DNA from: Octopus vulgaris
Taxonomy: Eukaryota
Direction of reading: 5' to 3'
DNA length: 64,000 bases
Assembly (NCBI GenBank): GCA_951406725.2
Contig: OX597817.1
Coordinates: 85,746,001 to 85,810,000 of the forward strand
Shown here piece after piece: positions 1,116 to 58,042 of the stretch. Position numbers and translations under genes: made by a program. The stretch's first letter is position 1, and the number at the start of each line of letters is the position of its first letter. The notes below the pieces were generated by a model. The model ran no database searches. It was not told the origin of the DNA and worked only from the letters and a program-made list of their open reading frames with translations.

Positions 1116-1560
1116 AATAATAGTAATAATAGTAGTAATAATAATGTTAATAACATAAATCAGTCTACCCCCATCTCTAACCTCTCCCTAGAATAATCCT
1201 CAGAACAATCCCCAGAATGCACTACCATGTGACAACCACCCTATAATTATTTGCTCTCTACAAATCCATTGCAGAAGGTCTAACGTAATTTACAAATGCC
1301 CTGTCCTCAACACACTACACAATTCTGCAACCATATATATAGGGTCAACTATAAATTTTAAACAGAGATATGCTGCACATCTCAATTCTTTTAGATATGA
1401 GAAACACAGTAAATCCACAACCCTTACCAGTCACATACATCATCTTAAAAATAGGAATATTCCATATAACTTATCATGGTCCATAATAGATTCAGGGTCT
1501 CTATACCAGGATCAATGCCCAGCCTGTAAGCTATGCCTAAAAGAGGCATTCCACATATAA
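238..1560 (+). mobile_element. 5'-truncated, degenerate Penelope-like retroelement (Naiad-type RT thumb/linker + GIY-YIG endonuclease)
   Basis: Manual translation gives three pieces. ~240-397: HKPNQYLKYLNINSNH..ISDLSSTEEIFNNHTPYY (RT thumb). 694-876: ILWYTPPFSVNVKNLA*SFFNIFDSNFPHQHKYYFIFNRSALKLPYSSLPNF (linker). 1228-1560: CDN..CSLQIHCRRSNVIYKCPV..IYIGSTINFKQRYAAHLNSFRYEKHSKSTTLTSHIHHLKN..LSWSII..CKLCLKE (GIY-YIG). In-frame stops are present. Confidence 0.85.
1058..1153. repeat. (AAT)n microsatellite inside the PLE relic
   Basis: Direct reading. Confidence 0.9.
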
Positions 1561-6144: not shown

Positions 6145-6265
6145 TATATATTAGAAGAAATGAGGTACTCACAAATCTTGATGGTTTTATATTTGCAGAT
6201 ATTTATCTGTAAATAATAAATATCTGTAAATATAAAACCATCCAGATTTCTGAGCACCTCATTTC

Positions 6266-6277
<12 letters not shown>
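6145..6277. repeat. Inverted repeat, 62-bp arms with 9-nt loop, in (TA)n
   Basis: 6145-6206 vs 6216-6277, ~4 mismatches. Confidence 0.9.
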
Positions 6278-8529: not shown

Positions 8530-8598
8530 GGAGTAAACACATAAATGTGAAACAAGGTGGAAAAAAGAGTACTCAAATACCAGTGGTAGAGTAATATG

Positions 8599-8660
8599 CT
8601 TTATTTTAAGCAGCAGAAAATTCAACAATTTTGTTGAATTTTCTGCTGCTTAAAATAAAG
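8599..8660. repeat. Perfect 30-bp-arm palindrome with 2-nt loop; right arm partly re-duplicated at 8674-8700
   Basis: CTTTATTTTAAGCAGCAGAAAATTCAACAA tt TTGTTGAATTTTCTGCTGCTTAAAATAAAG. Confidence 0.95.
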
Positions 8661-8722
8661 TATATATATATACTTTTCTGCTGCTTAAAATAAAGTATAT
8701 ATATATATATATATATATATAT

Positions 8723-8989: not shown

Positions 8990-9540
8990 ATTCATATTTA
9001 CACATATATATGTGTTTGTTTTTAGACTCAGTTATCGAGTTATATACAAAAATAATTTAACATTCAACTGAAGAATAACTCATTACTTTTATTCGAGTGC
9101 ATGTTTTAGTAGAGTACATGTTTATTACACTTTTTATTAAACTTTTGCATAGATAATCTGCAAGCTAAAACTTCAAAGTCAGCCTTTTCCTTTTAAAAGT
9201 TTAATAAATGCATATATATAAATATATGCATGTATTAAACTTATATGACACATACACAAGAACTAAACTTATATGAGACATACACAGGAGCTAAAATATT
9301 TATAGTGGGGTTTACCTTAATTTCCTTAATATATATCCATGCTAGCATGGAAGGCAGACATTAAACGATGATGAGGATGATGTATATTATACCCTCAATA
9401 CATACATACACACACACATACATACATACACGCACACATACATACACACACATACACACACACATGCATGCATACATACATACATACATACACACACGCA
9501 TGCATGCATACATACATACATACATACATACATACATACA

Positions 9541-13209: not shown

Positions 13210-13352
13210 ATGCTGGCAACGGCAACAATCGGTTGGTGCTTTTTATGTGCCACCAGCACAGAAGCCAGTCAAGGCAGTGCTGGCATTGGCCACATTCGGA
13301 TGGTGCTTTTTACGTGCTACTGGCACGGGTATTGCAACTACAATTTCCATTC
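13210..13352 (-). mobile_element. RTE LINE 3'UTR fragment
   Basis: GGTGCTTTTTATGTGCCACC units shared with 15680-15815 and 39890-40010. Confidence 0.75.
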
Positions 13353-15477: not shown

Positions 15478-15951
15478 CATCATCATCATTTAACGTCCGT
15501 TTTCTTTGCTAGCATGGGTTGGACGGTTCGACCAGGGTCTGGGAAGCCAGGAGGCTGCACCAGGCTCCAGTCTGATTCTGGCAGTTTTCTACAGCTGGAT
15601 GCCCTTTCTAATGCCAACCACTCCATGAGTGTAGTGGGTGCTTTTTACGTGCCACCGGCATAGGGGCCAGGGGAGGCTGGAAACGGCAACAATGGGTTGG
15701 TGCTTTTTACGTGCCACCAGCACAGAAGCCAGTCAAGGCAGCGCTGGCATTGGCCACATTCAGATGGTGCTTTTTACGTGCCACTGGCATGGGTATCGCA
15801 ACTACAATTTCCATTTGATTTTTATTTTAATGTTGATGTACTTGACTCAACAGGTCTCCTCAAGCACAGCAGGTCGCCCTACGATCCAAGGTAAGCACAG
15901 TAGGCCATCCTGCAATCCAAGGTACTTTGGATGGACTGGGGCTGCTATGTG
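15478..15951 (-). mobile_element. RTE LINE 3'UTR with (GAT)n tail
   Basis: Reverse-complement homolog of 2470-2924. Confidence 0.85.
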
Positions 15952-17072: not shown

Positions 17073-17163
17073 ACTCTTGCAAACCAAATCCTAAAACGAA
17101 ATTTGTAGTATAGTTTTATATCTATTTCATTTTATCTTATGCTTAAATTCAAAAATTATTCAG

Positions 17164-17243
17164 GTAATGATCTGAAAGAAGAGGAAGAAATTGTGGTTAC
17201 TACAGACTCTTGGAAAGAGAATCAGTTGTTAATAAACAATCAG
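17164..17243 (+). CDS. UACA/RAI14/ANKRD24-like gene, internal exon (GNDLKEEEEIVVTTDSWKENQLLINNQ)
   Basis: ttattcag acceptor, consensus CAG|gtaagt donor, 80 bp, phase 1/0. Confidence 0.8.
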
Positions 17244-17479: not shown

Positions 17480-18420
17480 TGTTCATCATTGTCCTCAAAT
17501 CCATAACAGGAATTTAAGACTAGCTGCCCTTGAAAACTACTATATGCTGATGACTTCATTCTGATAACAGAATCAGTCATAGAATTAGAAAAGAAATTCC
17601 TAGTGTGGAAGCAAAATCTGGAATCAAAGAGCCTTAAAGTTAACTTAACAAAGTCCAAAATTCTACTAAGCAGGAAAAGATAGACCCCACTCCCCTTGTT
17701 TGATATGTAGGAAAAGTGTAGGTAGGAATTCCATACAGTGTACTCAGTGCAAACTATGAACATGTATCATGGTATTATAGGAAGGTTAATGAAGAAAGTA
17801 ATGTTTGTATGTGGAAGGTGCTCAAAAGCAATGAACACTAATGACATACAGGCGATAGATTTTCTCAAATGCCCAGAAGGTTCCTAGAAGTAGCAATAGT
17901 TTCTGTTACCTAGGTGATCTAATTAGCAGTAGAGGGGGATGCTCTGAAAGTATAGTTGCCAGGTGACAATAAGAGGGAAAATTTCAGAGAACTATTATCT
18001 CTGTTGGCAACAAAATGACTCTCTTCGAGAGTGGAAGGCAGAATGCATGATACTTGTGTACAAACATGATAGAAGGTAGCAAAATGTGGACTGTGAATAC
18101 AGAGGATGTATAAAGGTTGGAAATTACTGAGGCTAACATACCCCCAATGGATGTGCATGCAAGCACAAATGTATTAAATGAAAAATTAGGCATAATAGGA
18201 ATCAGATGTAGTGTGCAAGAGAGACGGCTGCACTGGTATGATTATGTAGTGCTTATGGATGAGACAGCTGCATAAAGAAGTGCTACTCACTAAATATGGA
18301 TGGAGCCTGTGGAAGACTCAAGAAGACATCGCAGGAAGTAGTGAAGAATAACCTCTGGATGTTAAGCCTCATGAAAGAGAGGACAAAAGACCATGATGGT
18401 TGACAATTTACTGTACTTGA
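17480..18420 (+). mobile_element. Old RTE LINE ORF2 relic
   Basis: Degenerate EFKTSCP*KLLYADDFIL..ELEKKFLVWKQNLESKSLKVN, homologous to the LINE at 40389-41150. Confidence 0.8.
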
Positions 18421-19146: not shown

Positions 19147-19710
19147 AGGCTTAACATCCAGAGGTTATTCTTCACTACTTCCTGCGATGTCTTCTTGAGT
19201 CTTCCACAGGCTCCATCCATATTTAGTGAGTAGCACTTCTTTATACAGCTGTCTCATCCATAAGCACTACATAATCATACCAGTGCAGCCGTCTCTCTTG
19301 CACACTACATCTGATTCCTATTATGCCTAATTTTTCATTTAATACATTTGTGCTTGCATGCACATCCATTGGGGGTATGTTAGCCTCAGTAATTTCCAAC
19401 CTTTATACATCCTCTGTATTCACAGTCCACATTTTGCTACCTTCTATCATGTTTGTACACAAGTATCATGCATTCTGCCTTCCACTCTCAAAGAGAGTCA
19501 TTTTGTTGCCAACAGAGATAATAGTTCTCTGAAATTTTCCCTCTTATTGTCACCTGGCAACTATACTTTCAGAGCATCCCCCTCTACTGCTAATTAGATC
19601 ACCTAGGTAACAGAAACTATTGCTACTTCTAGGAACCTTCTGGGCATTTGAGAAAATCTATCTCCTGTATGTCATTAGTGTTCATTACTTTTGAGCACCT
19701 TCCACATACA
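19147..19710 (-). repeat. 564-bp inverted duplicate of 17806-18369
   Basis: End coordinates sum to the same value (37516), so there is no net indel; ~4 substitutions. Mirrored ORFs appear in the ORF track. Confidence 0.95.
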
Positions 19711-21264
19711 CACACTTGCATATACATATACACATACACACATATATACATATGGGTAGCTTTCGTCTTTTTCTGTCAAAAATGAGTTTTCCAACCCAGC
19801 GTTTACATGCTATTATTTCTGGCTTTATGTGGGCACTTTGAGATATTCCAAAATAAATTAGTTCACATTTTCTTGCAAGTTTATAAAATTCCTATGATGT
19901 CAACAAAATACAATTCTTCCTGATAAGAATAAGGTTTCTAAAATGGATAGAGAAATTTGCAGGATTGCTTTGGTACAATGGTAGAACACCTGTCATGTCT
20001 ACAAGTAATGTGGGTTGTCACACAGGTAGCCTTTGTCTTTTCTATCCTAAAGGGTTTTTAAACCCAGTATTTACATACCATTATTTATAGCTTTATGTGT
20101 ATGATTTGAAATATATGTATGTGTATATATATGATTGGTTACATATACAATCGCCTTGTTTTAATTTCTGTCTACCAGATCCACTCCCAAGGCTTTGGTT
20201 TGTCTCAGATGACACCTTCCCAAGGTTCCACTTTTGGAACTGAACCCAAAACCATGTAGTTTGGAAGCAAACTTCTTTACCACACAACCATACCTGCATG
20301 CTTAAGAAGTTCTTTTCAGATTCCCATTTACTTTTCAGGTAACATTTGTATGTCAGTAATATCAACACTATCAATAAGACTTCAGTAACATCTTTGTATG
20401 ATGGTGATGCTTGTTTACAACCATCACATGACAAGGTTACACACACACATATACATTATATATATATAAAATACAAAATGGGACAAGAACACAAAACATC
20501 TGGACAGCTAGGTGATACAAAAAGGGACAACAAAACATCTAGATAGATGATACAAAGAAAACAAGGACGGGTCATTCAAAGTTTTCTTTCCTCAGCCAAG
20601 CACCAGATTATCCTCGCAATTTCGGCTGATTATTCTTGAGATTGCTCCAATCTGGCCATATATATATGAAGACATGCTTCTTTCAATTTCCATCTTCCAA
20701 ATCCACTCAGAAGGCTTTGGTCATCCTAGGGCTATTGTAAAAGACACTTGCCCATACTACTGCATAGTGCATGTGAACCTGAGTGCATATAGTTGGGAAG
20801 CAAGCTTCTTAAACACATAGCCACACCAGTGCCTATCCATGCTTGTACCTATCAACAATACATCGGTGAGGCTTCAGATTCCTTGATGGTTTCCTTTGAT
20901 AGTCAGTAACAATTACTGCTAGATTTTTGTCTTATTTCTTCAACCAAAAAAGTAATTTTAATTAAGGATTTATTGCCATACAACATTCAATGCATTAACC
21001 CATAACTTATTGATCCAAATTCATGTCATTGGTTCATTTCAGTTATTTCCCATAACTCATTTTAATTTTTATTTATGCAAATTAGAATAGGGAAACAAAC
21101 TGAGGGAGCTATTACCTCTGCTGATGTTGACAGAAATATATAGAGAGATGGCCCCTACCTCTTGCCTGTAAACAAAGCTAAAACTTTTCCCTAAGCATGT
21201 AAATTAACTTTGAGAGATTAGTTCTAAATTTCTTGAAATTTTCTCCCCTTCATTTTGATAACCC

Positions 21265-34429: not shown

Positions 34430-35242
34430 GATAGGTAAATTGTCATCATTTTATATTTTTAATTTCACACATGTGCATTGTTTGTTTTTGATTTTGTTGA
34501 CTACACAGTATAGTAGGGTCAGTTGGGCACTACTCATGAGAAAAACAGCACCATGATGCAATTCACTCTGCCAGAAATTTGGAAACAACATGCTGTACTG
34601 CTTGGCATTCATGCTGGAAGCCCCAATACAAATAGATAGTACCAAGCGTGATAAAAATCAAACATCCAGTCAACATCATGGTGTTTGGAGTGATCACTAG
34701 TTATGCTTCCATTCGACTTCCACACCACCTCAGACTCAACATGGAAGCCTACATCAAGTACCTGGAGGTGGTAGTGCTGCTCTGGTTGAAGAGGATGGCT
34801 GCTGGAAGACCCTATTTCTGGCAACAGGAGTCTGCACCATGCCACACAAGCAGGAGAACTCAGTCATGGCTGTCAGACAATTTTTGCGACCACATCACCC
34901 CTAACATCTGGCCACCTAATTCCCCACATTGCAACGCACTTGATTATTATGTGTGGGGTGCAGTTGAGCAAGAGACCAACAAAACTATTGTAACACCAAG
35001 GCAAGGATTATGGCAGTGTTCACCAACTTAAACAAGGAAATCATCCTGAAGAGTTGCAGAAGATTCTGAATTCGTACGGAGGCCATGGTTGAAGCCAATA
35101 GCGATTTTATTGAATAAATTTACTCTTTAGTATTTCAAGATATTTTTATGTAACTTTGGTAAGTATATCTGTTAAGATGAGATGTGAGTGTTATTTTCAT
35201 TTTTACATATATTAGACAACAATAGATTCACCACGCCCTGTG
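34430..35242 (+). mobile_element. maT (DD37D-like) Tc1/mariner transposon, internally deleted
   Basis: ORF 34648-35031: KHPVNIMVFGVITS..YFWQQESAPCHTSRRTQSWLSDNF..WPPNSPHCNALDYYVWGAVE. Confidence 0.8.
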
Positions 35243-38079: not shown

Positions 38080-38349
38080 AACAGCTGAAATCCAGATATT
38101 CTCTGTATAGAAGACACTTAGTAGTGCTCAAAAGATTCAAAATTAGACTCCGATGTCTTTACAGGGGATCATTCTACAAGGCAAAGAAAGGCTATAAGAT
38201 AGATCAGGTTGAGCAGGTATAAAAGCAATTATTGACATAAGTGAATTAGACACATCAAATACATTAAATATATTAAGTACATATTTATACATATAAATTC
38301 ATCATTCATCATCTGAAAATTTCCACCTTTTGCTTTCTCTCATTTTCAA

Positions 38350-39321
38350 CTTCTTTTGTGAGCTTCTGCAGTGTCATCCTAGAAACATGCAGTTGAGCAT
38401 TGTCATGGAGCAGAATTGGACCACATCGATTAACAAGTGCAGGTCTCATTTTGCTCAAGTGAACATGCATTTCTTCCAGTTGCTTACGGTAAACTTTCAA
38501 TGTAATGTTCTGATTAGGTTCCAGAAAGCTGTAATGGATAACACCAATAACAGACCACCAGACAGTAACCATAATCTTTTGCTGATGCAACTTCAGTTTC
38601 AGGAAATGTTTGGGTGCTTCATCACAATCAAGCCATTGACCCAATTGCTTATGATTGTCATAATGGGTCCATTTTTCATTGCAAATCACTATTCAATCAA
38701 GAAATGGGTCATTAGAGTTTTGCAGGGAGAGCATCGAACACACTTCAAAAATGCTGAAGTCTTTGATTTTCATTGACATCATGCAGAACCCATTTATCAA
38801 GACTTTTCACATTGCCGATTTTCTTCAGGTAATCTGATAATGTTAAAACACTGATATCAAGCATATGAGACATTTTTCTGACACTTGGTCATGGGATTTG
38901 TTTGACTATTGTTTTCAAATGCTGATCATCAAGGGTGGATGGACATCCTCTACTTTTTTGATCTTCAAGGCTCTCATTCCTGCTACAGAATCTCTCAAAC
39001 CACCATTGTATTGCCTGATCACTGGTGGGCCCTTTACTCCATACTCTGTTGATATTGGTGGTTACTTGGAAAGCATTATGTCCAAGCTTCAATTCATGCA
39101 AAAAAAAAGTAAATGCATTTCTTCTTTTTTCATGTTTGAAATTAAGGATTTCTGCACTTCAAAATTATATTCTGAAAGAAATCAATAAAAATTTATTAAA
39201 GAGTACACATCAATTATTAAGCATGTAAAATTTCGTCTAAAACACTACAAAAATAACATCTTAAATCGAATTTGAAAAATGTTTTTGAAAAATCAGGCAG
39301 TATTTTCTGAACAAGCTAATA
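38350..39321 (-). mobile_element. mariner (cecropia/Hsmar1-like), 3'-truncated and degenerate
   Basis: ORFs HELKLGHNA..INRVW..QWWFERFCSRNESLED and CNEKWTHYDN..QWLD..KIMVTVWWSVIGVIHYSFL..GPILLHDNA. Confidence 0.9.
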
Positions 39322-39603
39322 TTTCCGAAAATACATGTTAACACAACATTTTCAAGGCAATCCAGAATTAGTTAAATTCAAACATTTGAACTGATTTAAA
39401 GGTTGTTTATTTTCCATCATTCTTTCATGCATCTACCCCGATATATATATATAAATATATATATATATGTATATATATACAACAAGGTTCTTTCATATAT
39501 ATATATATATATATAGGAAGAGTTTACGGAGAAAACAAAAGACGAAGACAGGTGGTGTACAAAACAAATAGATGTATTAGTATAACACTCAGGAATAAAA
39601 AAA

Positions 39604-39640
39604 AGTCTTTTACGTTTCGAGCCCACGCTCTTCTACAGAA
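39604..39640 (-). ncRNA. Minimal hammerhead-like motif variant in a short repeat within (TA)n
   Basis: Minus strand CTGTAGA-agagc gtgg gctc-GAAACGTA; the core deviates from CUGANGA. Confidence 0.3.
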
Positions 39641-41151
39641 TACATATATATATATATATATATCATCATCATCATCACCATCGTTTAACGTCCGTTTTCC
39701 GCGCTAGCACGGGTTGGACGGTTCAACTGGGGTCTGGGAGGCCAGGGGCTGCACCAGGCTCCAGTCTGATCTGGCAAAGTTTCTACAGCTGGATGCCCTT
39801 CCTAACGCCAACCACTCCGCGTGTGTTGTGGGTGCTTTTTATGTGCCACCTGCACAGGTGCCAGGGGGGTCCGGCATCGGCCACGATCGGTTGGTGCTTT
39901 TAATGTGCCACCGGCATGGAATCCAGCCAAGGCGGCGCTGGCATCGGCCACGTTCGGATGGTGCTTTTTATGTGCCACCGGCACAGGTATCACAACTGCT
40001 ATTTCCATTGATATTTATTTCGATGTTCATGTACTTGACTCGACAGGTCTCCTCAAGCACAGCGGGATGTTCTGGAATCCAAGGTACTTTGAATGGGCAG
40101 GGGCTATGCGGGACTGGTGCAGGAAGCAGCCCGGGTCTTTGCAGTCACAGCATATCTCCAGAGATCTCGGTCCTTTGCCATTGCCTCAGTGAGGCCCAAC
40201 GCTCTGAGGTCATGCTTGACTACCTCATCCCATGTCTTCCTGAGTCTACCTCTCCCCCTGATACCTTCAACTGTTTGGGAGTGGCACTTCTTCACACATC
40301 TCTCCTCATCCATCCACAGTACATGACCATACCATCGCAAGCGTCGCTCTTGCACACCGCATCTGATGCTTCTTATGTCCAGCATCTCTCACAGGGTGCT
40401 TACACTCTGTCGTGCATGCACACTGACATTACACATCCAGCAGACCATGCTAGCTTCATTCCTTTCAAGTCTACGCATGTCCCCTGCAGTCACAGCCCAT
40501 GTTTCACTACCGTGAAGCATGGCAGTTCGCACACATGCGTCATACAATCTACCTTTCACTTTGAGCGAGAGACCCTTTGTCACCAGTAGGGGTAGGAGCT
40601 TTCTGAACTTTGCCCAGGCTATTCGTATTCTAGTGGTGATACTCTCTGAGCATCCACCTCGACTACTAACTTGGTCACCCAGGTAGCGGAAACTATCAAC
40701 TACTTCTAGTTTCTCCCCCTGGGGTGTGATGGAATCTGTTTTCTGAGTATCTGTGGTGTCTATTGTCCCAGTGCATCTGCCGCACATGAAAGCTATCCTA
40801 TCAGTTAATTTCCCTTTGATGTTGCTGCACCTCTTATGCGTCCATCTTATGGAGTTTCTACCTACACCTTTCCTACAGATCGAGCAGGGCCACCTGCCCG
40901 AGGGGGTGTGTGCTGAGTTCGCCTTTCTGCTTACTATAACTTTGGTCTTTGCTACATTTACTCTAAGGCCCTTTGATTCTAACCCTTGCTTCCACACCCG
41001 AAATTTCTTTTCTAGTTCCGGTAGTGATTCTGCTATGAGAGCCAGGTCATCAGCATAGAGGAGCTCCCAAGGGCATCCTGTTTTGAATTCCTCTGTTATT
41101 GCCTGGAGGACTATGATGAATAAAGGGGGACTGAGCCTTGGTGTACACCTA

Positions 41152-42412
41152 CGAGGGGCGTTCAATAAGTAATGCCCCTGACCCACTTGCAATTATTTAT
41201 ATCTCTATAGATTAAGTGGCAAATTACAGCTCTGAACTAATTGTGGTTTCCGATTTACAAGTGTTTGAACTGAGTCAAGTGTGAAATGGAGCCTGTTGAG
41301 TGTCGAGCAGTGATCCAGTTTTTGTATTTGAAAGGACACACACCACAGGAGACTTTTGATGAAATGAAAGTAACTTATGGTGATGATGCCCCATCATATG
41401 ACCTTGTAAAACGCTGGCATCATGAATTCAAACATGGTCGGAACTCTGTGGAAACAGCTCCCAGATCTGGTCGCCCCCCCTTCTGCAATTGATGAGGCAT
41501 CTGTCTGTCAAGTTGAGGCTGCCATTTTGGAAGATCGACGCATAACTACTCACCAAATAGCCCATGAGGTCAAGATTAGTACCAGGTCTGTGGAAACTAT
41601 CATTCATAACCATTTGCATATGCAAAATGTGTCTGCCAGATGGATTCCCAGGTTGCTCACACCTTTCCAGAAGCAAGAACGCGTCGATTGCTCGAGGATG
41701 AATTTGGAGATGTGCCAAGAAGATGAGTCAAAATTTTTCAAAAGGCTGATTGCATAGGATAAAACCTGGGTCCATCACTATGATCCAGAGACCAAAGCCC
41801 AGTCAATGCAGTGGAAGCACCGTGACTCACCTCCTCCAAAGAAGGCAAGGGTGCAGCCCTCCACTGGCAAGGTCATGCTTACAGTCTTCTGGGACCAGGA
41901 CGGAGTAGTGAAGACAGATTTCCTGGCAAAGGGTGCCACAATTACAGGAGTCTATTATGCTTCACTTTTGAGGAAATTAAGAGAAGCTATCAAAATCAAG
42001 AGGCGAGGCAAGATCAGCAAAGGCATCCTCCTCCTGCAGGACAATGCTCCGATCCACAACTCGCGTGTCGCCAGATCAGAAGCACAGGCGTGCGGCTATG
42101 AACTCATCCCCTATCCCCCCTACTCTCCTGACCTTGCACCCTCTGATTTTCACCTCTTCCCAGCCATGAAGTTGTTTTTGAAAGGAAAGCGTTTCCCAGA
42201 TGATGCAGCCTTGATTTATGAAGTCACGTCGTGGTTGGAGGACCAAGCTGGGGTCTTCTACAAAAATGGTCTTCAGAGCTGCATCAAACGATGGGAGAAA
42301 TGCATAACTCTGGGTGGTTCCTATGTAGAAAAAGGCTAATAACTGTCCCAAGTTTCGTTGCTCTACTTCTATGGGAAGTGGGTCAGGGGCATTACTTATT
42401 GAACGCCCCTCG
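41152..42412 (+). mobile_element. Full-length mariner (irritans-like), 1261 bp
   Basis: Perfect 37-bp TIRs CGAGGGGCGTTCAATAAGTAATGCCCCTGACCCACTT; TA duplication at 41150-41151 and 42413-42414. Confidence 0.97.
41286..42339 (+). pseudogene. mariner DD34D transposase with one frameshift and one stop
   Basis: MEPVECRAVIQFLYLKG.., WIPRLL, *DKTWVHHY, QDNAPIH-(34 aa spacing)-YSPDLAPSD. Frameshift near the C-run at ~41474-41480; TAG at 41755-41757. Confidence 0.93.
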
Positions 42413-43511
42413 TACTTCTACCCAGAATTCTTAACAAGGTTCTTTCACCTTCTGTCAGCTAAATCCACTCCTAAGGTTTTGGTTGGCTGAGGGCTGCAGT
42501 AGAAGATGTATGCCCACAGCAGGATTGAACTCAAACCACATAGTTGGGAATCAGCTAAGCCTAGGCCTATATATATATATATATATAGTATAAAATATGA
42601 ATAAATATTTTATATCCTATAAGTAAAAATAAATTTGAATTATCTAATTATCACAAATATGGACAATCATGCAAAAAGGAGCTAAGCATCTTAAAGCCCT
42701 CACCAATCTCAATCCTGGGCAAATGTTCTCTTCCTGCCTCAGATGTTGAGTTACTGACAAATCCTCCCACATCAATGAAGGATACTCAGTGTTTGTCACT
42801 GTACATTGGAAATAACCAATAAATCTCATTCAAGTCACACCCAACCTTCTTCTAAAAGAAAGGACACATAAGATAACGTTGTCCAAAATATTATGTCAGA
42901 AGTAAAAGTAGCAATTTCACAACTGGAACACCTTTGAAAGTACATCTGTTTAGCTAGTACTGATCTAAGACTAAATAGCAATGCTTAATAAAATTATATA
43001 TCATTTGTTAAAATTGATTAATTAAAAGAGTATGCAGAAACAATTAAAGAATGATCAATCTTCTCTAAAAGATTTGGAGTCAAATTATAGCAGCTTGGAA
43101 TATATGAATTGTTGCAAAATCATGGTGCCTGAAGACAGTCAGGGATTATATCAGTGAAAATATCATATAATTAGATGGACCAACCAAGACATACTTCAAC
43201 TCAACAATATTGTTTTCTTAATTTTCTCTTTTGTTTTAAGCTTTTTAACAAAAATTATTATCTTCTTGATGAAAGACTTCATAATGTTAAAGAATTATTT
43301 TATAAATATTAAAATAAATATGAAATGTTTTACTGTCTAATCTTTCCATTTGTTAGATGATTGCTCTAAAAAATACTTATTCCTCTGTTCTTCATTGATA
43401 GAACTGCAGCTTTTCGGTAACCTTCTTTTCCAAAACTAAAAATATGATAATTAGTAATGGTGAGAAAATTTAATTATTTAGCTGTTGTTTTTCTTTTTCT
43501 TTTCCTTTCAG

Positions 43512-44585
43512 AATCAGTGCCAAGATTCAGAAACCCAAGCTGATTTCGTTACAGATGATAAAGTTAATGATCTACTAGCCAAAAATGAATGCTTGCACTT
43601 TCAAATTGAACAGTTATCTTTTCAATTAAGTAAAGTTTATAATCGATTTATGAGGAAAGACTCTGATGAGAGTATTGACAGTGGGCAAGACAGTCAGTTA
43701 TCTCCAATACAGCAACAAAATGACTTACTAACACTGGAACTTGAACAACTCAAACAAGATTACCTGCTTCTGCAAAAAGAACACCAAGACCTAGTCAATG
43801 CTGGGGACATACTGCAAGAGGATTATGAGAAACTCCTTGAAGAACGGGATAAAATGCAAGAAGTCCTTGAAAAGGTAACTAACACCAAATGGGTAGCCCA
43901 AAATGAAATAGCTGCCTTGGAAACAAAGAATGTTATTCAAGAAATCCCTGAAACTATTAATCCTAATTTTGAGAACTGGGAGCAAGGCAAGCAAAATATA
44001 ATAAACAAGCATTCAGACACTGATTTAAGAACGAGTCAACAGAGGAATCCAGAAACAGAGGATGTGATAGAAGAAGATGGGTTAAAAAGAAGTATTCAAC
44101 TGAACAGCTGCTCAGAAGTTCTACAAGACCAAAGTATAATATTGAATCATTTGCAGACACTGAGGGATGAAAACAAAAAATTATTCCTGGAGAAAGAGAA
44201 TGTTATTGAAGACCTTGAAATATCATTCAATGAAAACAGTGAGCTAAAACAAAAATTAAATGCAGCAATTGAAAACTATAGCTTGTTAGAGAAAAATTAT
44301 ACATCATTGTTGCTTGAAAAACAAAATGTGGCTGCTAAAGATATTAGTGGCCTTGATAGCAAGAATATTAATGACAGCAGCATTCGACTACACTCTAATC
44401 AACAAGAACAACTTCAATTATACCCCTCCCAGCCAAATGAAAGGTCTATTCAAACTACAGATGATAACAACATTCAACAGACACTTCCAAACAATAGTTC
44501 AGAGAAGGAACAGATTGATATACAGAAATCAAATCAGATCGAATTACTGAAGGTCCTTATATCACAACTTCAGCAAGAGTTAATA
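43512..44585 (+). CDS. UACA/RAI14/ANKRD24-like gene, large coiled-coil exon (358 codons)
   Basis: Longest ORF in the window; ttttcctttcag acceptor, ATA|gtaagt donor, phase 0/0; heptad-rich E/Q/L/K sequence. Confidence 0.93.
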
Positions 44586-45973
44586 GTAAGTAACAATTTG
44601 ATATTATTAAAAACGAAAATGTTCACCGTACATACATACCCATAATTATTTAAATACCTAAGTGAATAAATCACTTCAAGTGCTTAGCTTGCACAATTGA
44701 AACATACTGGAAACATAGGAAGGCTGAAGTACCACTCCTAGAATAGGGCTCTAGACAGTCCCTTATAATACCAGGTCTATAATTGTGTATGCCTTTCAAA
44801 ATTTGCATTGCTCAGCCAGGAACAGGGTCATGTTACTCATGATGCCAAAAAGCAATATAACACCCCATCTGACCTTCCATGTGGCTTATGTAGCAAAGTA
44901 TGCTGTTAAATGGTTGAGTTAAAATGCCATCTCAAAGCATGCCACCCAAATAGACTAAGATCCATTAGAATAGATCAAATGTCCAACTTGCAGTATGAGT
45001 TGGAGGTGAATGATTGTTTAGACTATGAGCTGTCTCAGAAGTGACCAGTGACAAGTAAACTTATACTAAGATGGATGGTCAATGTGCAGGAAGTGGCTGC
45101 ACTTGGACAGTTTGACTTCAACTATATAGATGTGTATGTATATGTGTGTATGTGCTTTTGTTCAATCAGATAATGGCCCTTACAAGAAGAATAAACAAAT
45201 ATATCTTGCTATACTTTACATTAATGAGTATTATATACTAAAATGCCTTTCTCTCAGTTTTTTAGACAGGTATCTACTTATGTAATTATGTTCCAATCTG
45301 TCAAGCATCTTACCCATTACAGAAACCACTACTCCACTTTCTTATTGCAATGACCTCTGACAAGTCAGCCAATTTCAAATGATGGCCTTTTTCATTTTCT
45401 TCTCCTTTCCTTATTCTTTTCTTCCAGTTAAGTATTCTAGTGTAATCATTAATACTTACCTCTTCGTCCTTCCATACCCATTTCTTTCACACTTGAGTAT
45501 TCTGTAGAGTACTGATCAGAATTGGTTATTGAATGCTATTCGCCCCTGACCCCACTTCCACCTTACATATACATGGTAGAAAAGAGTAGTCAATACATTT
45601 TGTAAAGTATATATTTCTTTATATCAGCTAACACAGGATTGCATTACTTCAAGTTTCTCAAAAATTACCAGAAAACAGCACTCTGAATTATTCATGGTTT
45701 TGGTACTGACTTGGAATGCAATTCTTAGATAAATTTTAATACAAATACAATCATGCATGCGTGTGTGTGTGTGTATGTGTGCATGAGTAGAGAGAGAGAG
45801 TGAGAGTTGCAGTGGGTGGCGGTGGACCTAAATATATTTATATACTTGAAGCATGTATAATTTTGCTCCGATTCAGAGTGCGATGTATGTATGTATTCTC
45901 AATATGACTCAGTTAAGTTGATAATACATAATTATGTAGCATAACAGAGCATAACAAGGCATTTATGTATAAG

Positions 45974-46460: not shown

Positions 46461-46834
46461 GTATATATAATCGCTCATATTAAATGTATAAATACTTTAA
46501 TAGTATTAATACTATGATACAATAGAGCACTCAATGTAAATTCTATATATAATATTCTCATTGAATATATTTAACTAAAGATTTATAGATTTATATATAT
46601 ATATATATATGTATATATATGCAAATATATATATATGCACACACACATACATACATACATGCATGCATACATACAGACACACACACACACAAACACATGT
46701 ATATGTGAGTGCATAGCTGCAAAACAAGGTGAATAAAGTAAATACATTCATATACCAAAGGTAAACTATATTTTTTTTTTCTTGTAATTGATCATTAAAC
46801 AAAAGTTAACTTTTGGAACAATGCAATGGTTTAC

Positions 46835-47473
46835 AAATATTTCTAAATATCTGTAAACCAGCTGACAGAAGGTGAAAGAACCTTGTTAAGAATTCCGGGT
46901 AGAAGTAGGTGTACACCAAGGCTCAGTCCCCCTTTATTCATCATAGTCCTCCAGGCAATAACAGAGGAATTCAAAACAGGATGCCCCTGGGAGCTCCTCT
47001 GTGCTGATGACCTGGCTCTCATAGCAGAATCACTACTGGAACTAGAAAAGAAATTTATATAGTATAAAATATGAATAAATATTTTATATCCTATAAGTAA
47101 AAATAAATTTGAATTATCTAATTATCACAAATATGGACAATCATGCAAAAAGGAGCTAAGCATCTTAAAGCCCTCACCAATCTCAATCCTGGGCAAATGT
47201 TCTCTTCCTGCCTCAGATGTTGAGTTACTGACAAATCCTCCCACATCAATGAAGGATACTCAGTGTTTGTCACTGTACATTGGAAATAACCAATAAATCT
47301 CATTCAAGTTACACCCAACCTTCTTCTAAAAGAAAGGACACATAAGATAACGTTGTCCAAAATATTATGTCAGAAGTAAAAGTAGCAATTTCACAACTGG
47401 AACACCTTTGAAAGTACATCTGTTTAGCTAGTACTGATCTAAGACTAAAATATTTCTAAATATCTGTAAACCA
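46835..47473. other. Composite locally templated insertion with 26-bp target-site duplication
   Basis: TSD AAATATTTCTAAATATCTGTAAACCA at 46835-46860 and 47448-47473. 46860-47056 is the reverse complement of 41001-41151 joined to 42415-42460; 47057-47449 is a direct copy of 42583-42975. Confidence 0.95.
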
Positions 47474-47581
47474 TTGTACTGTTCTAAAACTTCTCTCTGT
47501 TTATTGGTTATGCTTAGAAACTCTGAGTATCAATTTGTTAAGTTTTTTACCATAAAAAAACATTGTATGTGTATATGTTTT

Positions 47582-52089: not shown

Positions 52090-52364
52090 TCACTTGTTAA
52101 GGTTATCTACAGATTTTCTATAGACATTATAGCCAACACTGATGATTTTGTTACGACATTTCATATCTGAGTACACCTAATGTAAACAACATTGAGATCG
52201 AAGATGAAAAATGGGTAATAGACTTTGTAGTATACATTACCCATTTTTCATCTTCAATCTCAATGTTGTTTGCATTAGGCATACTGACATACAAAATGTT
52301 GTAACAAAATTAGTGCTGGCTATAATTTCTATAGAAAATCTATAGAGATGACCTTAACAAGTGA
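52090..52364. repeat. Foldback element/long imperfect palindrome, ~130-bp arms
   Basis: TCACTTGTTAAGGT..GAAGATGAAAAATGGGTAAT / ATTACCCATTTTTCATCTTC..ACCTTAACAAGTGA. Confidence 0.85.
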
Positions 52365-55182: not shown

Positions 55183-55720
55183 CAGGCATGGCTGTGTGGT
55201 AAAGAAGTTTGCTTCCTAACCACATGGTTTCAAGTTCAGTCCCACTGCATGGCATCTTGGGCAAATGTCTTCTACTGTAACCTCAGGTCAACCAAAACTT
55301 TGTGAGTTGATTTGGTAGATGGAAACTGAAAGAAGCCAATTGTGTGTGGGGGCGGGGTTTATCCCCACCATTGCTTGACAAATGTTGTTGGTTTGTCTAT
55401 TTATATGCATTTAAGAGTTGAAATAACTGTGAAGATATATATTATGGCTGACTAATCAATGTGTTGGACTAACAACTTTAAGCTGATATTTATCCAGTTT
55501 TCCTTTTGCCAAGAATAAAGTTGAAAACTAGGTAACATTGCAATATCAGAATTGAATAGACAACATTAGCAAGACCATCACATTAGCAGTTCAGCAAAAG
55601 AGACTGATAGAAAAAGTTCCAGACTTTAAAAATAAGTACTGGGATCGATTTGTTTGACTAACCCTTTGAAACAATGCCCCAGCATGACCACAGTACCATG
55701 ACTGAGACAAAGGAGAAAAG
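55183..55720 (+). mobile_element. SINE family A interrupted by a 185-bp insertion
   Basis: SINE 5' part runs to 55397 and resumes TTAGCAGTTCAGCAAAAGAGAC at 55583. Confidence 0.85.
55398..55582 (-). repeat. 185-bp inverted duplicate of 56394-56578
   Basis: No mismatch seen by eye. Confidence 0.95.
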
Positions 55721-56624
55721 ATATAGTATTCTGTCCAACACTCATTTATGTTACTTCCTCATAACCATGTAAAAAAAGATTAGTTTCTAACTTTAGCATA
55801 AAACATTTTTGAGTGAATAAATATGGTAAAAGGAATTGGTTCCAGTATATTCCTATTACTCATAGTCTTTTCATTGTCCCATGAATTAAGGAAGATGAAG
55901 TTTATTTTAGAAGGTTTGGATTCAGAATGAGGAGTAGGCATGACTGCATGGTTAAGCAGTTCAGTTCCCAACCATTGCATAACACCTTGAGAAAATGTCT
56001 TCTACTAAGCATTGAACTAACCAAAGCAGATTTGGTAGATGCAACTGAAAACTGAAAGAAACCTCTGTGCATGCACGCATGCATTCATGCATGTTTGAGA
56101 TTTCTTTCAACATCAGATGAATGCTATGAGTGTCACTATCTTCTATGGAAATCTTGCCTTTCTTGAAAATAGATGATGGTTGGCAATAAGGAGGGCATCT
56201 GGTTGCAGAGAGTCTGCCACAACAAGCTTTGTCTGCCCCATGTAAGCATGGTAAAAGTGGACATTAAAATGATAATGTTGCTTCTGTAAAAGGATATAAT
56301 TACATATTGCAAAGCATCTAATTCAAAACTTCTATTTCTGCCGTCCATGAGTTCAAACATTTGCATTTGTTCATAGAATATCTGTTTGGTTACTGTGATG
56401 GTCTTGCTAATGTTGTCTATTCAATTCTGATATTGCAATGTTACCTAGTTTTCAACTTTATTCTTGGCAAAAGGAAAACTGGATAAATATCAGCTTAAAG
56501 TTGTTAGTCCAACACATTGATTAGTCAGCCATAATATATATCTTCACAGTTATTTCAACTCTTAAATGCATATAAATATTTTCAATTCAACTGAAAGAAA
56601 GGAAGGAAGGAAGAAAGAAAGAAA

Positions 56625-57032: not shown

Positions 57033-57098
57033 GATTCAGAGAAACGCTATCAAGAAACTGTGCAGACTTACCGTTTACATTTAATCAGTGCTATTCAG
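57033..57098 (+). CDS. UACA/RAI14/ANKRD24-like gene, penultimate exon (DSEKRYQETVQTYRLHLISAIQ)
   Basis: ctttcttcctag acceptor, CAG|gtttgc donor, phase 0/0; resembles the family motif HQEVI.iYR.HLL.A.Q. Confidence 0.92.
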
Positions 57099-57117
57099 GT
57101 TTGCAAAGCTCTTTATA

Positions 57118-57635
57118 TTAAGTGGAAGAAAAAGTTCGTGCACCGTGTTAAAATAATGCTTTTTTTATATATTTTTGTGGTGTGTGTGTTCATTCAGTTC
57201 ATGTCATGTTCAATGATGACTCACTGTGTTTGTCAAAAACGCACTTTGTTTCAACAAGACAATGCAAAGCCACATACCGGCAGAAAGGCCAGCAACAAGA
57301 TTGACGAATTGGACAGTGTGGAAGTTCTGCTGCATCCAGTCTTATAATCCAGACATTTCTCCATCTGACTATGGTCTCTTCCAATCAATGCAGCACTTTA
57401 TGAAAGGTTGCCAATTTGAGTCATTTCATGAAGATGAAGAAGCCTGTCAAGAATTTTTTTATTCAAAGCCGAAGGATTGGTACTCTGACCAAATCCAAAA
57501 GCTTGCTATCATTGAAATAAGGTCTTGGAAAATGGTGGTCTTTATTTTGAAGAATAGATGTTGTTGTTTTTGAATAAATTCTTGCATAAAAAATCATTAT
57601 TTTAACACGGTACACAAACTTTTTCCTCAACGTAG
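57118..57635 (+). mobile_element. Internally deleted mariner with both TIRs
   Basis: TA|TTAAGTGGAAGAAAAAGTTCGTGCACCGTGTTAAAATAATG and its diverged inverse; retains FQQDNAKPH..HP/SYNPDISPSDYGLF. Confidence 0.85.
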
Positions 57636-57967
57636 TATTTAATTGGCTTCTTTAATGTAATAAAATTTAGTGAAAGGCTTCAAGAGGCAAAATTTAATAT
57701 TTTTCTTATTAAATTGATAAGCATTATATATTTTAGTTCCTTCACTGTAAAGAAAATGTAATTGTCTCTCATTATCCTGAATATAAAGGTAAACCAAACA
57801 ATAATTATCCCAAACATATTCAGTATGACAGCTAAATATTAACTTGAAAGAACTGATTAATGGTAGGAGCATACATAATGATTGAAACTATAAATTATTA
57901 AGTTGATTTATTAAACTTTTTAATGAGATTATAAATTTGATATTAATTTGCTACTTTCTTTTTTTAG

Positions 57968-58042
57968 GGCCATATTGATCCTGATGTGAAGAATGGATTG
58001 TTTAGTATCATTGAAATGAGAAGTTTAGAAGAACACTGTTGA
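57968..58042 (+). CDS. UACA/RAI14/ANKRD24-like gene, last coding exon (GHIDPDVKNGLFSIIEMRSLEEHC*)
   Basis: Strong acceptor, TGA at 58040-58042; resembles the UACA C-terminus as recalled (GHMDEDVQEALLQIIQMR...C*). Confidence 0.92.
   Translation, partial: GHIDPDVKNGLFSIIEMRSLEEHC

What the first reader, a model, noticed from the sequence alone, without database searches (positions are those of the whole stretch)
46835..47473. A piece of this gene's own intron re-inserted ~4 kb downstream with twin-priming geometry and a 26-bp TSD: candidate local RNA-templated insertion
Seen: the order is TSD, reverse complement of 42460->41001 (without the mariner), direct copy of 42583->42975, TSD. The junctions have 1-2 nt microhomology, 122 bp of source (42461-42582) is skipped, and there is no poly(A). 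Identity is very high (~4/197 and ~1/390 differences). Both LINE copies share the same frameshifting lesion after GVHQGS, so this is a local copy rather than an independent LINE insertion. Known: an inverted 5' part plus a direct 3' part, with a small gap and a TSD, is the signature of twin-primed TPRT, and RTE elements do not need poly(A) tails. Inference: a LINE RT may have reverse-transcribed the nascent sense pre-mRNA into a break within the same gene (cis RNA-templated repair). DNA template switching (MMBIR, FoSTeS, Pol theta) is the alternative.
Basis: partly seen in the sequence, partly recalled or inferred. Interest (0 to 1): 0.8.

Follow-up and report, generated by a model that had tools for sequence, protein, structure and literature searches.

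The report
Two-piece local DNA repair patch
In an octopus gene, 587 bases of one intron sit copied into the next intron as a backward piece plus a forward piece between two identical 26-base repeats; this is real and most likely a DNA-break repair patch copied from nearby DNA, a known kind of scar, though copying from the gene's own RNA is not excluded.

Summary
Observation confirmed. A 587-bp insert (46861-47447) lies between exact 26-bp repeats: 196 bp inverted from 42459->41001 without the mariner, then 391 bp direct from 42583-42973. The copy carries the donor LINE's own 5' junction, target duplication and lesions, so it is local. Contigs of four other runs carry the junctions and only about two copies of the direct part: no artefact, no high-copy repeat. 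The RNA reading is not supported over DNA. There is no tail; the 26-bp duplication exceeds RTE's 7-15 bp (the donor LINE's own is 15 bp); no editing mark; the target is an older palindrome; two more >99% local inverted copies without duplications lie in the same 64 kb. A resected + strand or an opened duplex gives the same geometry as twin priming. Closest known: repair-mediated duplications (Pace 2009: <5 kb, <=619 bp, some two-donor, some with TSD) and yeast same-locus double inverted insertions. The scan noted similar local two-piece copies on other DNA, one in this genome (unchecked). DNA template about 75%, RNA about 20%. Local copies look dense here, which makes a genome-wide strand test feasible.

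The parts
46835..46860 (+). Left copy of the 26-bp target-site duplication
   Evidence: exact match to 47448-47473, no third copy in window
46861..47056 (-). Inverted piece, 196 nt: copy of 42459->42415 and 41151->41001; holds non-LINE flank, the donor LINE's 15-bp TSD, its 5' truncation junction (46888) and 169 nt of RT-coding LINE
   Evidence: 4 differences in 196; family contigs continue differently before 46888
47057..47447 (+). Direct piece, 391 nt: copy of unique intron DNA 42583-42973
   Evidence: 1 difference; depth about the sum of the two flanks in 3 runs, two separate alleles at 47310 in all 4
47448..47473 (+). Right copy of the 26-bp TSD
   Evidence: junction crossed by contigs in X3, X6, X8 with 0 other letters
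46809..46860 (.). Left arm and centre of an older imperfect palindrome (29 of 34 pairs, centre 46843/46844; right arm continues at 47474-47491) that was the insertion target
   Evidence: DNA fold z = -4.0, 0 of 200 shuffles as good
41001..41151 (-). Donor of the inverted piece, LINE part
   Evidence: ORF 40389-41147 hits RVT_1, E 6.5e-8
41152..42412 (+). Mariner-type DNA transposon in the donor, TA duplicated, one frameshift and one stop; absent from the copy
   Evidence: Transposase_1 E 2.5e-24; 39-nt perfect end match; translation
42415..42459 (-). Donor of the inverted piece, LINE 5' end (to 42432), its TSD (42433-42447) and flank
42460..42582 (.). Skipped source, about 122 bp, ending in a (TA)n run
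42583..42973 (+). Donor of the direct piece
   Evidence: one 3350-nt contig of X2 runs through it
39662..42432 (-).
43514..44587 (+). Large coding exon of the host ankyrin-repeat/coiled-coil gene, between donor and insertion
   Evidence: 100% to octopus proteins P0001/P0002; exon map; Ank domains in P0002

Best explanation
The 587-base insert is a local copy of the gene's previous intron, one piece backward and one forward, and it most likely arose when a staggered germline DNA break was patched by copying nearby DNA rather than RNA. Inferred steps: (1) a break with 26-nt 3' overhangs formed in an older A/T-rich palindrome, likely because it forms a hairpin or cruciform, though a transposon nuclease could have cut; (2) + strand DNA 3.9-4.6 kb upstream became available, as the resected tail of the left end or as an opened duplex on the sister or homologue; (3) the left end primed at 42460 and copied 196 nt leftward (inverted piece), the right end primed at 42975 and copied 391 nt leftward until it stopped in the (TA)n run (direct piece); (4) the two new strands were joined with 1 nt of overlap and fill-in of the overhangs gave the TSD; (5) the mariner was not in the template: it landed in the donor later, or the template was a mariner-free allele. 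No function is indicated; it is likely a neutral scar.
For: Shown: anatomy; locus-specific junction and lesions copied; presence in runs of four organism labels. Size (587 bp), distance (3862-4571 bp without the mariner), two local donors, short microhomology, no tail all fall in the range of repair-mediated duplications: 824 human cases within 5 kb, max 619 bp, 20 two-donor chimeras of which 5 had both donors local, 6 of 39 inspected with a TSD (4-21 nt), 0 of 39 with poly(A/T), no link to gene density (PMC2671141). TSDs form by fill-in at 3'-overhang breaks without any RT (PMC8355091). Resection to under 10 kb and self-annealing give local inverted duplications in human cells (10.1101/2024.12.14.628481). 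Base rate: all 5 non-palindromic, non-simple self-matches of >=93% and >=40 bp in the window lie within 6 kb (chance about 2e-4, threshold chosen after looking), and the two other >99% copies have no TSD and no tail, one with about 17 bp lost from a SINE. Target palindrome: 4 such loci in the window, under 1% of its length (post hoc).
Against: The two pieces are nearly adjacent in the source and both fit one strand, the sense strand, which is the textbook twin-priming pattern (66% of 1,703 5'-inverted L1 insertions is the figure given next to internal deletions in 10.1101/2024.08.27.596794, passage cut). It is the only one of the local copies in the window with a TSD, and 26 nt is longer than the 4-21 nt of the vertebrate sample. 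Priming microhomology at the left end is 1 nt, less than expected for DNA strand invasion (recalled). The TSD is not symmetric about the palindrome centre (-8.5/+16.5), so a simple cruciform cut needs 8 nt of trimming. The genome is rich in active reverse transcriptases. No empty allele was seen.
Confidence: 0.6

Rival explanations
1. A retroelement reverse transcriptase (LINE or Penelope) or a host polymerase used the gene's own unspliced sense RNA as template from both ends of the break (twin priming in cis).
For: Geometry, sense strand and upstream donor fit; gene is on +; TSD present. Twin priming on host mRNA is documented for L1 (10.1101/2024.12.14.628481; PMC13174262); repair by transcript RNA in cis is documented (review PMC12686478); some break patches derive from RNA (PMC5110952). 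Unchecked scan notes report double priming by Penelope-type elements and one more two-piece intron copy in this genome.
Against: No poly(A) or (GAT)n tail; nearest upstream AATAAA is about 150 nt before the end. TSD 26 bp against 7-15 for RTE and 7-18 for L1 (PMC6007223) and 15 bp for the donor LINE. No T stretch at P-10 and nick not TTTT/A. 0 of 5 differences is a copy-derived A-to-G on the sense strand: at 42424 another run's donor has the copy's letter; at 41070 the family appears to share the copy's letter (no row); five sites are too few to exclude RNA. The mariner skip is not GT-AG in any of 4 registers on either strand. All 39 proximal duplications inspected in primates lacked tails.
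Confidence: 0.2
2. The inversion formed first at the donor, as a replication U-turn (a leftward nascent strand stalled at the (TA)n run and switched to, or was joined with, a 196-nt stretch of the opposite strand), and the released piece was then captured at the staggered break by end joining.
For: In yeast RPA and rad27 mutants most complex insertions are two pieces from one locus in inverted orientation, median 150 bp, junctions 30-119 bp apart in rtt105, joined to the break with 0-4 nt microhomology (PMC11724301). Outer junctions here have 1-2 nt. 196 nt is about one Okazaki fragment (recalled).
Against: The inner junction has 1 nt of microhomology, against 2-11 (median 6) in yeast. A free fragment does not by itself explain a donor 4 kb away.
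Confidence: 0.15
3. The inverted piece is an independent LINE insertion, or the composite is a repeat family, fused by chance to a local duplication.
For: Divergence differs between pieces (4/197 vs 1/393, Fisher p 0.045).
Against: The piece carries the donor's 5' truncation junction, its TSD and flank, a 7-nt lesion and a non-family letter; 2 of the 4 differences are at CpG; direct piece is about two-copy.
Confidence: 0.02
4. Assembly artefact.
For: No single contig spans the insert; none meets the 31-letter bridging rule.
Against: All three junctions occur in contigs of other runs with 0-1 other letters; two alleles at 47310 in 4 of 4 runs; 5 fixed differences between donor and copy.
Confidence: 0.02

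Closest known systems
Repair-mediated duplications (RDs), Pace, Sen, Batzer and Feschotte 2009, PMC2671141 (read: parts 1-5 of 8, passages, part 1 of 15 of Table S1)
   Same: Donor within 5 kb, insert under 619 bp, two local donors, short microhomology, no poly(A), TSD in a minority of cases.
   Different: Invertebrate; TSD 26 nt against 4-21; the two donors are about 122 bp apart (289-3,432 bp there) and opposite in orientation (the part of Table S1 seen has no orientation column); target is a palindrome, not an annotated TE; empty site not observed.
Same-locus double inverted insertions and fold-back insertions at yeast breaks, Yu et al., PMC11724301 (read: abstract, passages)
   Same: Two pieces from one locus in inverted orientation with a small gap, NHEJ-like outer junctions, DNA-only model.
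   Different: There the donors are distant, the inner junction has longer microhomology, and events are somatic in mutants; no 26-bp TSD.
Twin priming of L1 and of host mRNAs (Ostertag and Kazazian 2001, not read; described in 10.1101/2024.08.27.596794, 10.1101/2024.12.14.628481 and PMC13174262, passages)
   Same: TSD, inverted 5' piece, direct 3' piece, internal deletion, direct piece longer.
   Different: No poly(A) priming end, no endonuclease motif, long TSD, template is unspliced intron 4 kb from the target.
Templated sequence insertions, class 1 and 2 (Onozawa and Aplan, PMC5110952; read: abstract, part 2 of 4)
   Same: Copied genomic patch with intact donor; TSD as in class 1, tail-less as in class 2.
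   Different: Fits neither class fully; those donors are distant.
Local n-jumps of cancer genomes (Li et al. 2020, PMC7025897; passages)
   Same: Three clustered junctions, mixed orientation, copy gain by copy-and-paste.
   Different: Germline, sub-kilobase, fixed in the runs laid.

Membership tests
Repair-mediated duplication (Pace 2009) | Donor within 5 kb on the same chromosome | tested here: met
   3862-4571 bp without the mariner; up to 5.8 kb today
Repair-mediated duplication (Pace 2009) | Insert 50-619 bp, donor intact | tested here: met
   587 bp; donor contigs
Repair-mediated duplication (Pace 2009) | Single other copy in the genome | tested here: inconclusive
   No genome held; contig depth and two alleles fit two copies, but the tool says depth is no copy number
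Repair-mediated duplication (Pace 2009) | No poly(A/T) tail; microhomology, filler, deletion or short TSD at the ends | tested here: met
   No tail; 1-2 nt microhomology plus TSD; TSD 5 nt longer than their range
Repair-mediated duplication (Pace 2009) | Empty orthologous site | tested here: inconclusive
   No empty-site joint in 4 of 4 runs laid; reconstructed only, where it restores a palindrome
Twin-primed TPRT insertion | TSD + inverted 5' piece + direct 3' piece with small gap | tested here: met
Twin-primed TPRT insertion | 3' end primed on a poly(A) or element tail | tested here: not met
   No tail; ends in plain intron sequence
Twin-primed TPRT insertion | RNA intermediate (splicing, editing, polyadenylation) | tested here: inconclusive
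   No exon junction spanned; no GT-AG; 0 of 5 copy-derived sense A-to-G
RTE-clade trans-mobilised insertion | TSD mostly 7-15 bp | tested here: not met
   26 bp against PMC6007223; donor LINE 15 bp
RTE-clade trans-mobilised insertion | T stretch about 10 nt before the TSD; microsatellite 3' end | tested here: not met
   T runs at P-3..-5 and P-21..-24, none at P-10; no tail; first TSD letter A does fit animal RTEs
Class 1 TSIP | TSD, poly(A) after a signal, TTTT/A nick | tested here: not met
   Only the TSD is present
Yeast-type double inverted insertion | Longer microhomology (2-11 nt) at the inner junction | tested here: not met
   1 nt
Any | Enzyme dependence (RT, Pol theta, Pol delta, NHEJ) | not testable with these tools
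   Single fixed germline event

The most novel reading that the evidence does not exclude
Octopus germ cells patch breaks inside active genes by reverse-transcribing the gene's own unspliced RNA from both break ends, leaving tail-less, TSD-flanked, two-piece intron copies a few kb downstream; with three >98% local copies in 64 kb, the genome would hold thousands of fossils that let RNA-templated repair in cis be measured in a natural animal germline.
Probability: 0.2. Interest if true: 0.7.

Novelty: new member of a known kind. Interest (0 to 1): 0.27.

Why it matters
As one locus it is a clean but ordinary repair scar without sign of function. Its value is as a test case. Whether natural germline patches are copied from RNA or DNA is open, and two-piece copies reveal which strand both ends used, which one-piece copies cannot. 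The window also holds two other >99% local inverted copies: 2 in 64 kb besides the finding (about 31 per Mb; wide error, not checked with reads, different method) against 0.08-0.65 per Mb of TE DNA in vertebrates (PMC2671141). If that density holds, octopus genomes offer enough events for the strand test.

Tried and rejected
No whole genome is held, so no genome-wide survey. A scan of metagenome contigs for an octopus SINE motif, to get more DNA, found 0 stretches. No RNA holder on record was listed; expression was not tested. Laid 4 of the 20 holders listed; flank holes (right flank in X2, left flank in X3 and X8) prove nothing. Mariner removed by splicing: rejected, no GT-AG (the registers were mis-set and are superseded). 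ADAR fingerprint: two donor-A/copy-G sites looked suggestive but are donor-side changes. Dating mariner against copy: the mariner differs from its family majority at 6 listed sites and seems present in the donor of run X3 (contig starts 25 nt inside it), the copy differs by 5 in 587; the ages overlap, so the order is not dated. TSD search around 6 other LINE pieces and 8 SINEs in the window gave no credible TSD, so the local TSD comparison rests on one LINE. Symmetric cruciform cut: does not match without trimming. Literature: 10 searches found no paper on local twin-primed intron copies or on such duplications in cephalopods; the library is open-access only, so this is no proof of absence. 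Supplements: only part 1 of 15 of Pace Table S1 was read; the five local two-donor rows were not seen; bioRxiv supplements are closed and Yu's Figure S4 was not read; these may hold closer precedents.

Full report
Observation. An exact 26-bp repeat lies at 46835-46860 and 47448-47473 and nowhere else in the window. Between them are 587 bp: 196 nt that are the reverse complement of 42459..42415 joined to 41151..41001 (4 differences), then 391 nt identical but for one base to 42583-42973. The mariner at 41152-42412 is missing from the copy and one clean TA remains. Junction overlaps are 1, 1 and 2 nt; the last is 5 nt if one A slipped. There is no tail.

Context. The exon 43514-44587 is 100% identical to octopus proteins; the gene is on the + strand, with exons at 17163-17243, 43514-44587, 57035-57098 and 57968-58039 and N-terminal ankyrin repeats in the longer form. 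The donor is in the intron before the large exon, the insertion in the intron after it.

It is real and local. Contigs of 4 runs (of 20 holders listed; four organism labels) were laid. The left junction is crossed in X2, the inner one in X8, the right one in X3, X6 and X8, with 0-1 other letters; the short sides are 28-30 letters, just under the tool's 31-letter rule, and no contig spans the whole insert. Depth over the direct piece is about the sum of the two flanks (86.8 against 37.8 and 53.7; 15.9 against 8.5 and 8.0; 10.1 against 5.5 and 4.6) and thousands of times below the LINE, with two letters at 47310 in all four runs: about two copies. No empty-site joint was listed. The inverted piece carries the donor LINE's 5' truncation junction, the LINE's own 15-bp TSD (39481-39495 / 42433-42447) and flank, a 7-nt lesion and a non-family letter at 46975. 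It therefore came from this locus.

Tests of the RNA reading. The donor LINE shows the local retrotransposition signature: 15-bp TSD and a (GAT)n tail. The finding has 26 bp and no tail. RTE TSDs are mostly 7-15 bp, L1's 7-18, and RTE-related insertions have a T stretch near P-10 (PMC6007223, passages); none is there. The mariner skip has no GT-AG in any register. Two differences read donor A, copy G on the sense strand, as ADAR editing would; but at 42424 the donor of run X3 has the copy's G, and at 41070 the family appears to share the copy's letter (no row). At 41056 the copy is derived, T to C on the sense strand. So 0 of 5 differences is an editing mark; that neither supports nor excludes RNA.

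Why the geometry does not decide. If each break end primed its own piece, both copied the + strand leftward. Sense RNA does that. So does the resected 3' tail of the left end, which is + strand DNA upstream of the break: the left end folds back on it (inverted piece), the right end anneals to it (direct piece). Two ends invading a nearby duplex use the same strand half the time. An R-loop also exposes the + strand. This is inference from strand logic. Published support: resection under 10 kb and self-annealing give local inversions and inverted duplications (10.1101/2024.12.14.628481, section 9); 3'-overhang breaks give short duplications by fill-in (PMC8355091, passages); yeast breaks capture two pieces of one locus in inverted orientation, 30-119 bp apart (PMC11724301, passages).

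Base rate and target. All 5 non-palindromic, non-simple self-matches of at least 93% and 40 bp lie within 6 kb (chance about 2e-4; 1e-3 if one is a small transposon's ends; threshold set after looking). Two are over 99%: 17802-18369 / 19147-19714 and 55398-55585 / 56391-56578. Neither has a TSD or tail; the second interrupts a SINE with about 17 bp lost. They were not checked with reads. The reconstructed empty target is an imperfect palindrome, 29 of 34 pairs, far more decayed than the copy and so older; 4 such loci cover under 1% of the window. The TSD lies at -8.5/+16.5 from its centre, so a structure-linked break is plausible but not shown.

Against my reading. The near-adjacency of the pieces, the sense strand, the upstream donor and the TSD are all what twin priming gives (10.1101/2024.08.27.596794, passages), L1 can twin-prime host mRNA, RNA-templated repair in cis exists (PMC12686478, passages), and this is the only local copy here with a TSD. 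Left-end microhomology of 1 nt is low for strand invasion (recalled). Unchecked scan notes describe double priming by Penelope-type elements and another two-piece intron copy in this genome.

Comparison. Repair-mediated duplications (PMC2671141; parts 1-5 of 8 read) are the closest class: 824 human cases within 5 kb, up to 619 bp, 20 two-donor chimeras with 5 wholly local, TSD in 6 of 39 inspected, poly(A/T) in 0 of 39, no link to gene density. In the part of Table S1 read (1 of 15), 3 of the 14 annotated human-specific rows have a TSD and 2 of these 3 lie outside annotated genes; no orientation column was seen. The finding meets the tested RD features except that single copy and empty site remain inconclusive. 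It works like twin priming in geometry but fails the tail and TSD-length tests for a TPRT product.

Verdict. Real, local, likely neutral; a new member of a known kind. DNA-templated repair 0.75 in all (two-ended copying 0.6, captured replication U-turn 0.15), RNA template 0.2. Interest 0.27; 0.7 if a genome-wide strand test showed RNA. Ten literature searches found no description of this class in cephalopods, within an open-access library.

Noticed in passing
window 17802-18369 and 19147-19714: 568-bp inverted local copy (99.1%) of a decayed LINE piece, 778 bp downstream, no TSD or tail.
   Followed up: partly
window 55398-55585 and 56391-56578: 188-bp inverted local copy (no internal difference) that interrupts a SINE with about 17 bp lost; donor lies downstream.
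   Followed up: partly
window 13212-13351 and 15676-15815: 140-bp direct pair, 94%, much closer to each other than to other LINE 3' pieces (85%): likely an older local copy.
   Followed up: partly
window 46053-46137/46384-46470, 14169-14334/14631-14792, 62247-62391/63401-63545: Further close pairs (94% inverted, 86% inverted, 89% direct) with no third relative in the window; local copies or ends of small transposons.
   Followed up: no
window 6145-6277, 8594-8665, 9194-9245, 52090-52364: Non-simple palindromes; the one at 6175-6248 folds at z -12.5 and shares 14 nt and similar ends with the target palindrome, perhaps one small family.
   Followed up: partly
window 41152-42412: Mariner of a very high-copy young family (depth thousands of times the flank at >=96%), one frameshift and one stop.
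   Followed up: partly
window 39496-39661: About 130 bp of other sequence inside the (TA)n between the LINE's tail and its TSD; by eye like a Penelope-related fragment (recalled, untested).
   Followed up: no
window 1192-1560, 38309-38692, 34636-35031, 57115-57638: GIY-YIG remnant (E 4e-4), Transposase_1 remnant (E 7e-24) and two more transposase-like remnants without Pfam hit.
   Followed up: no
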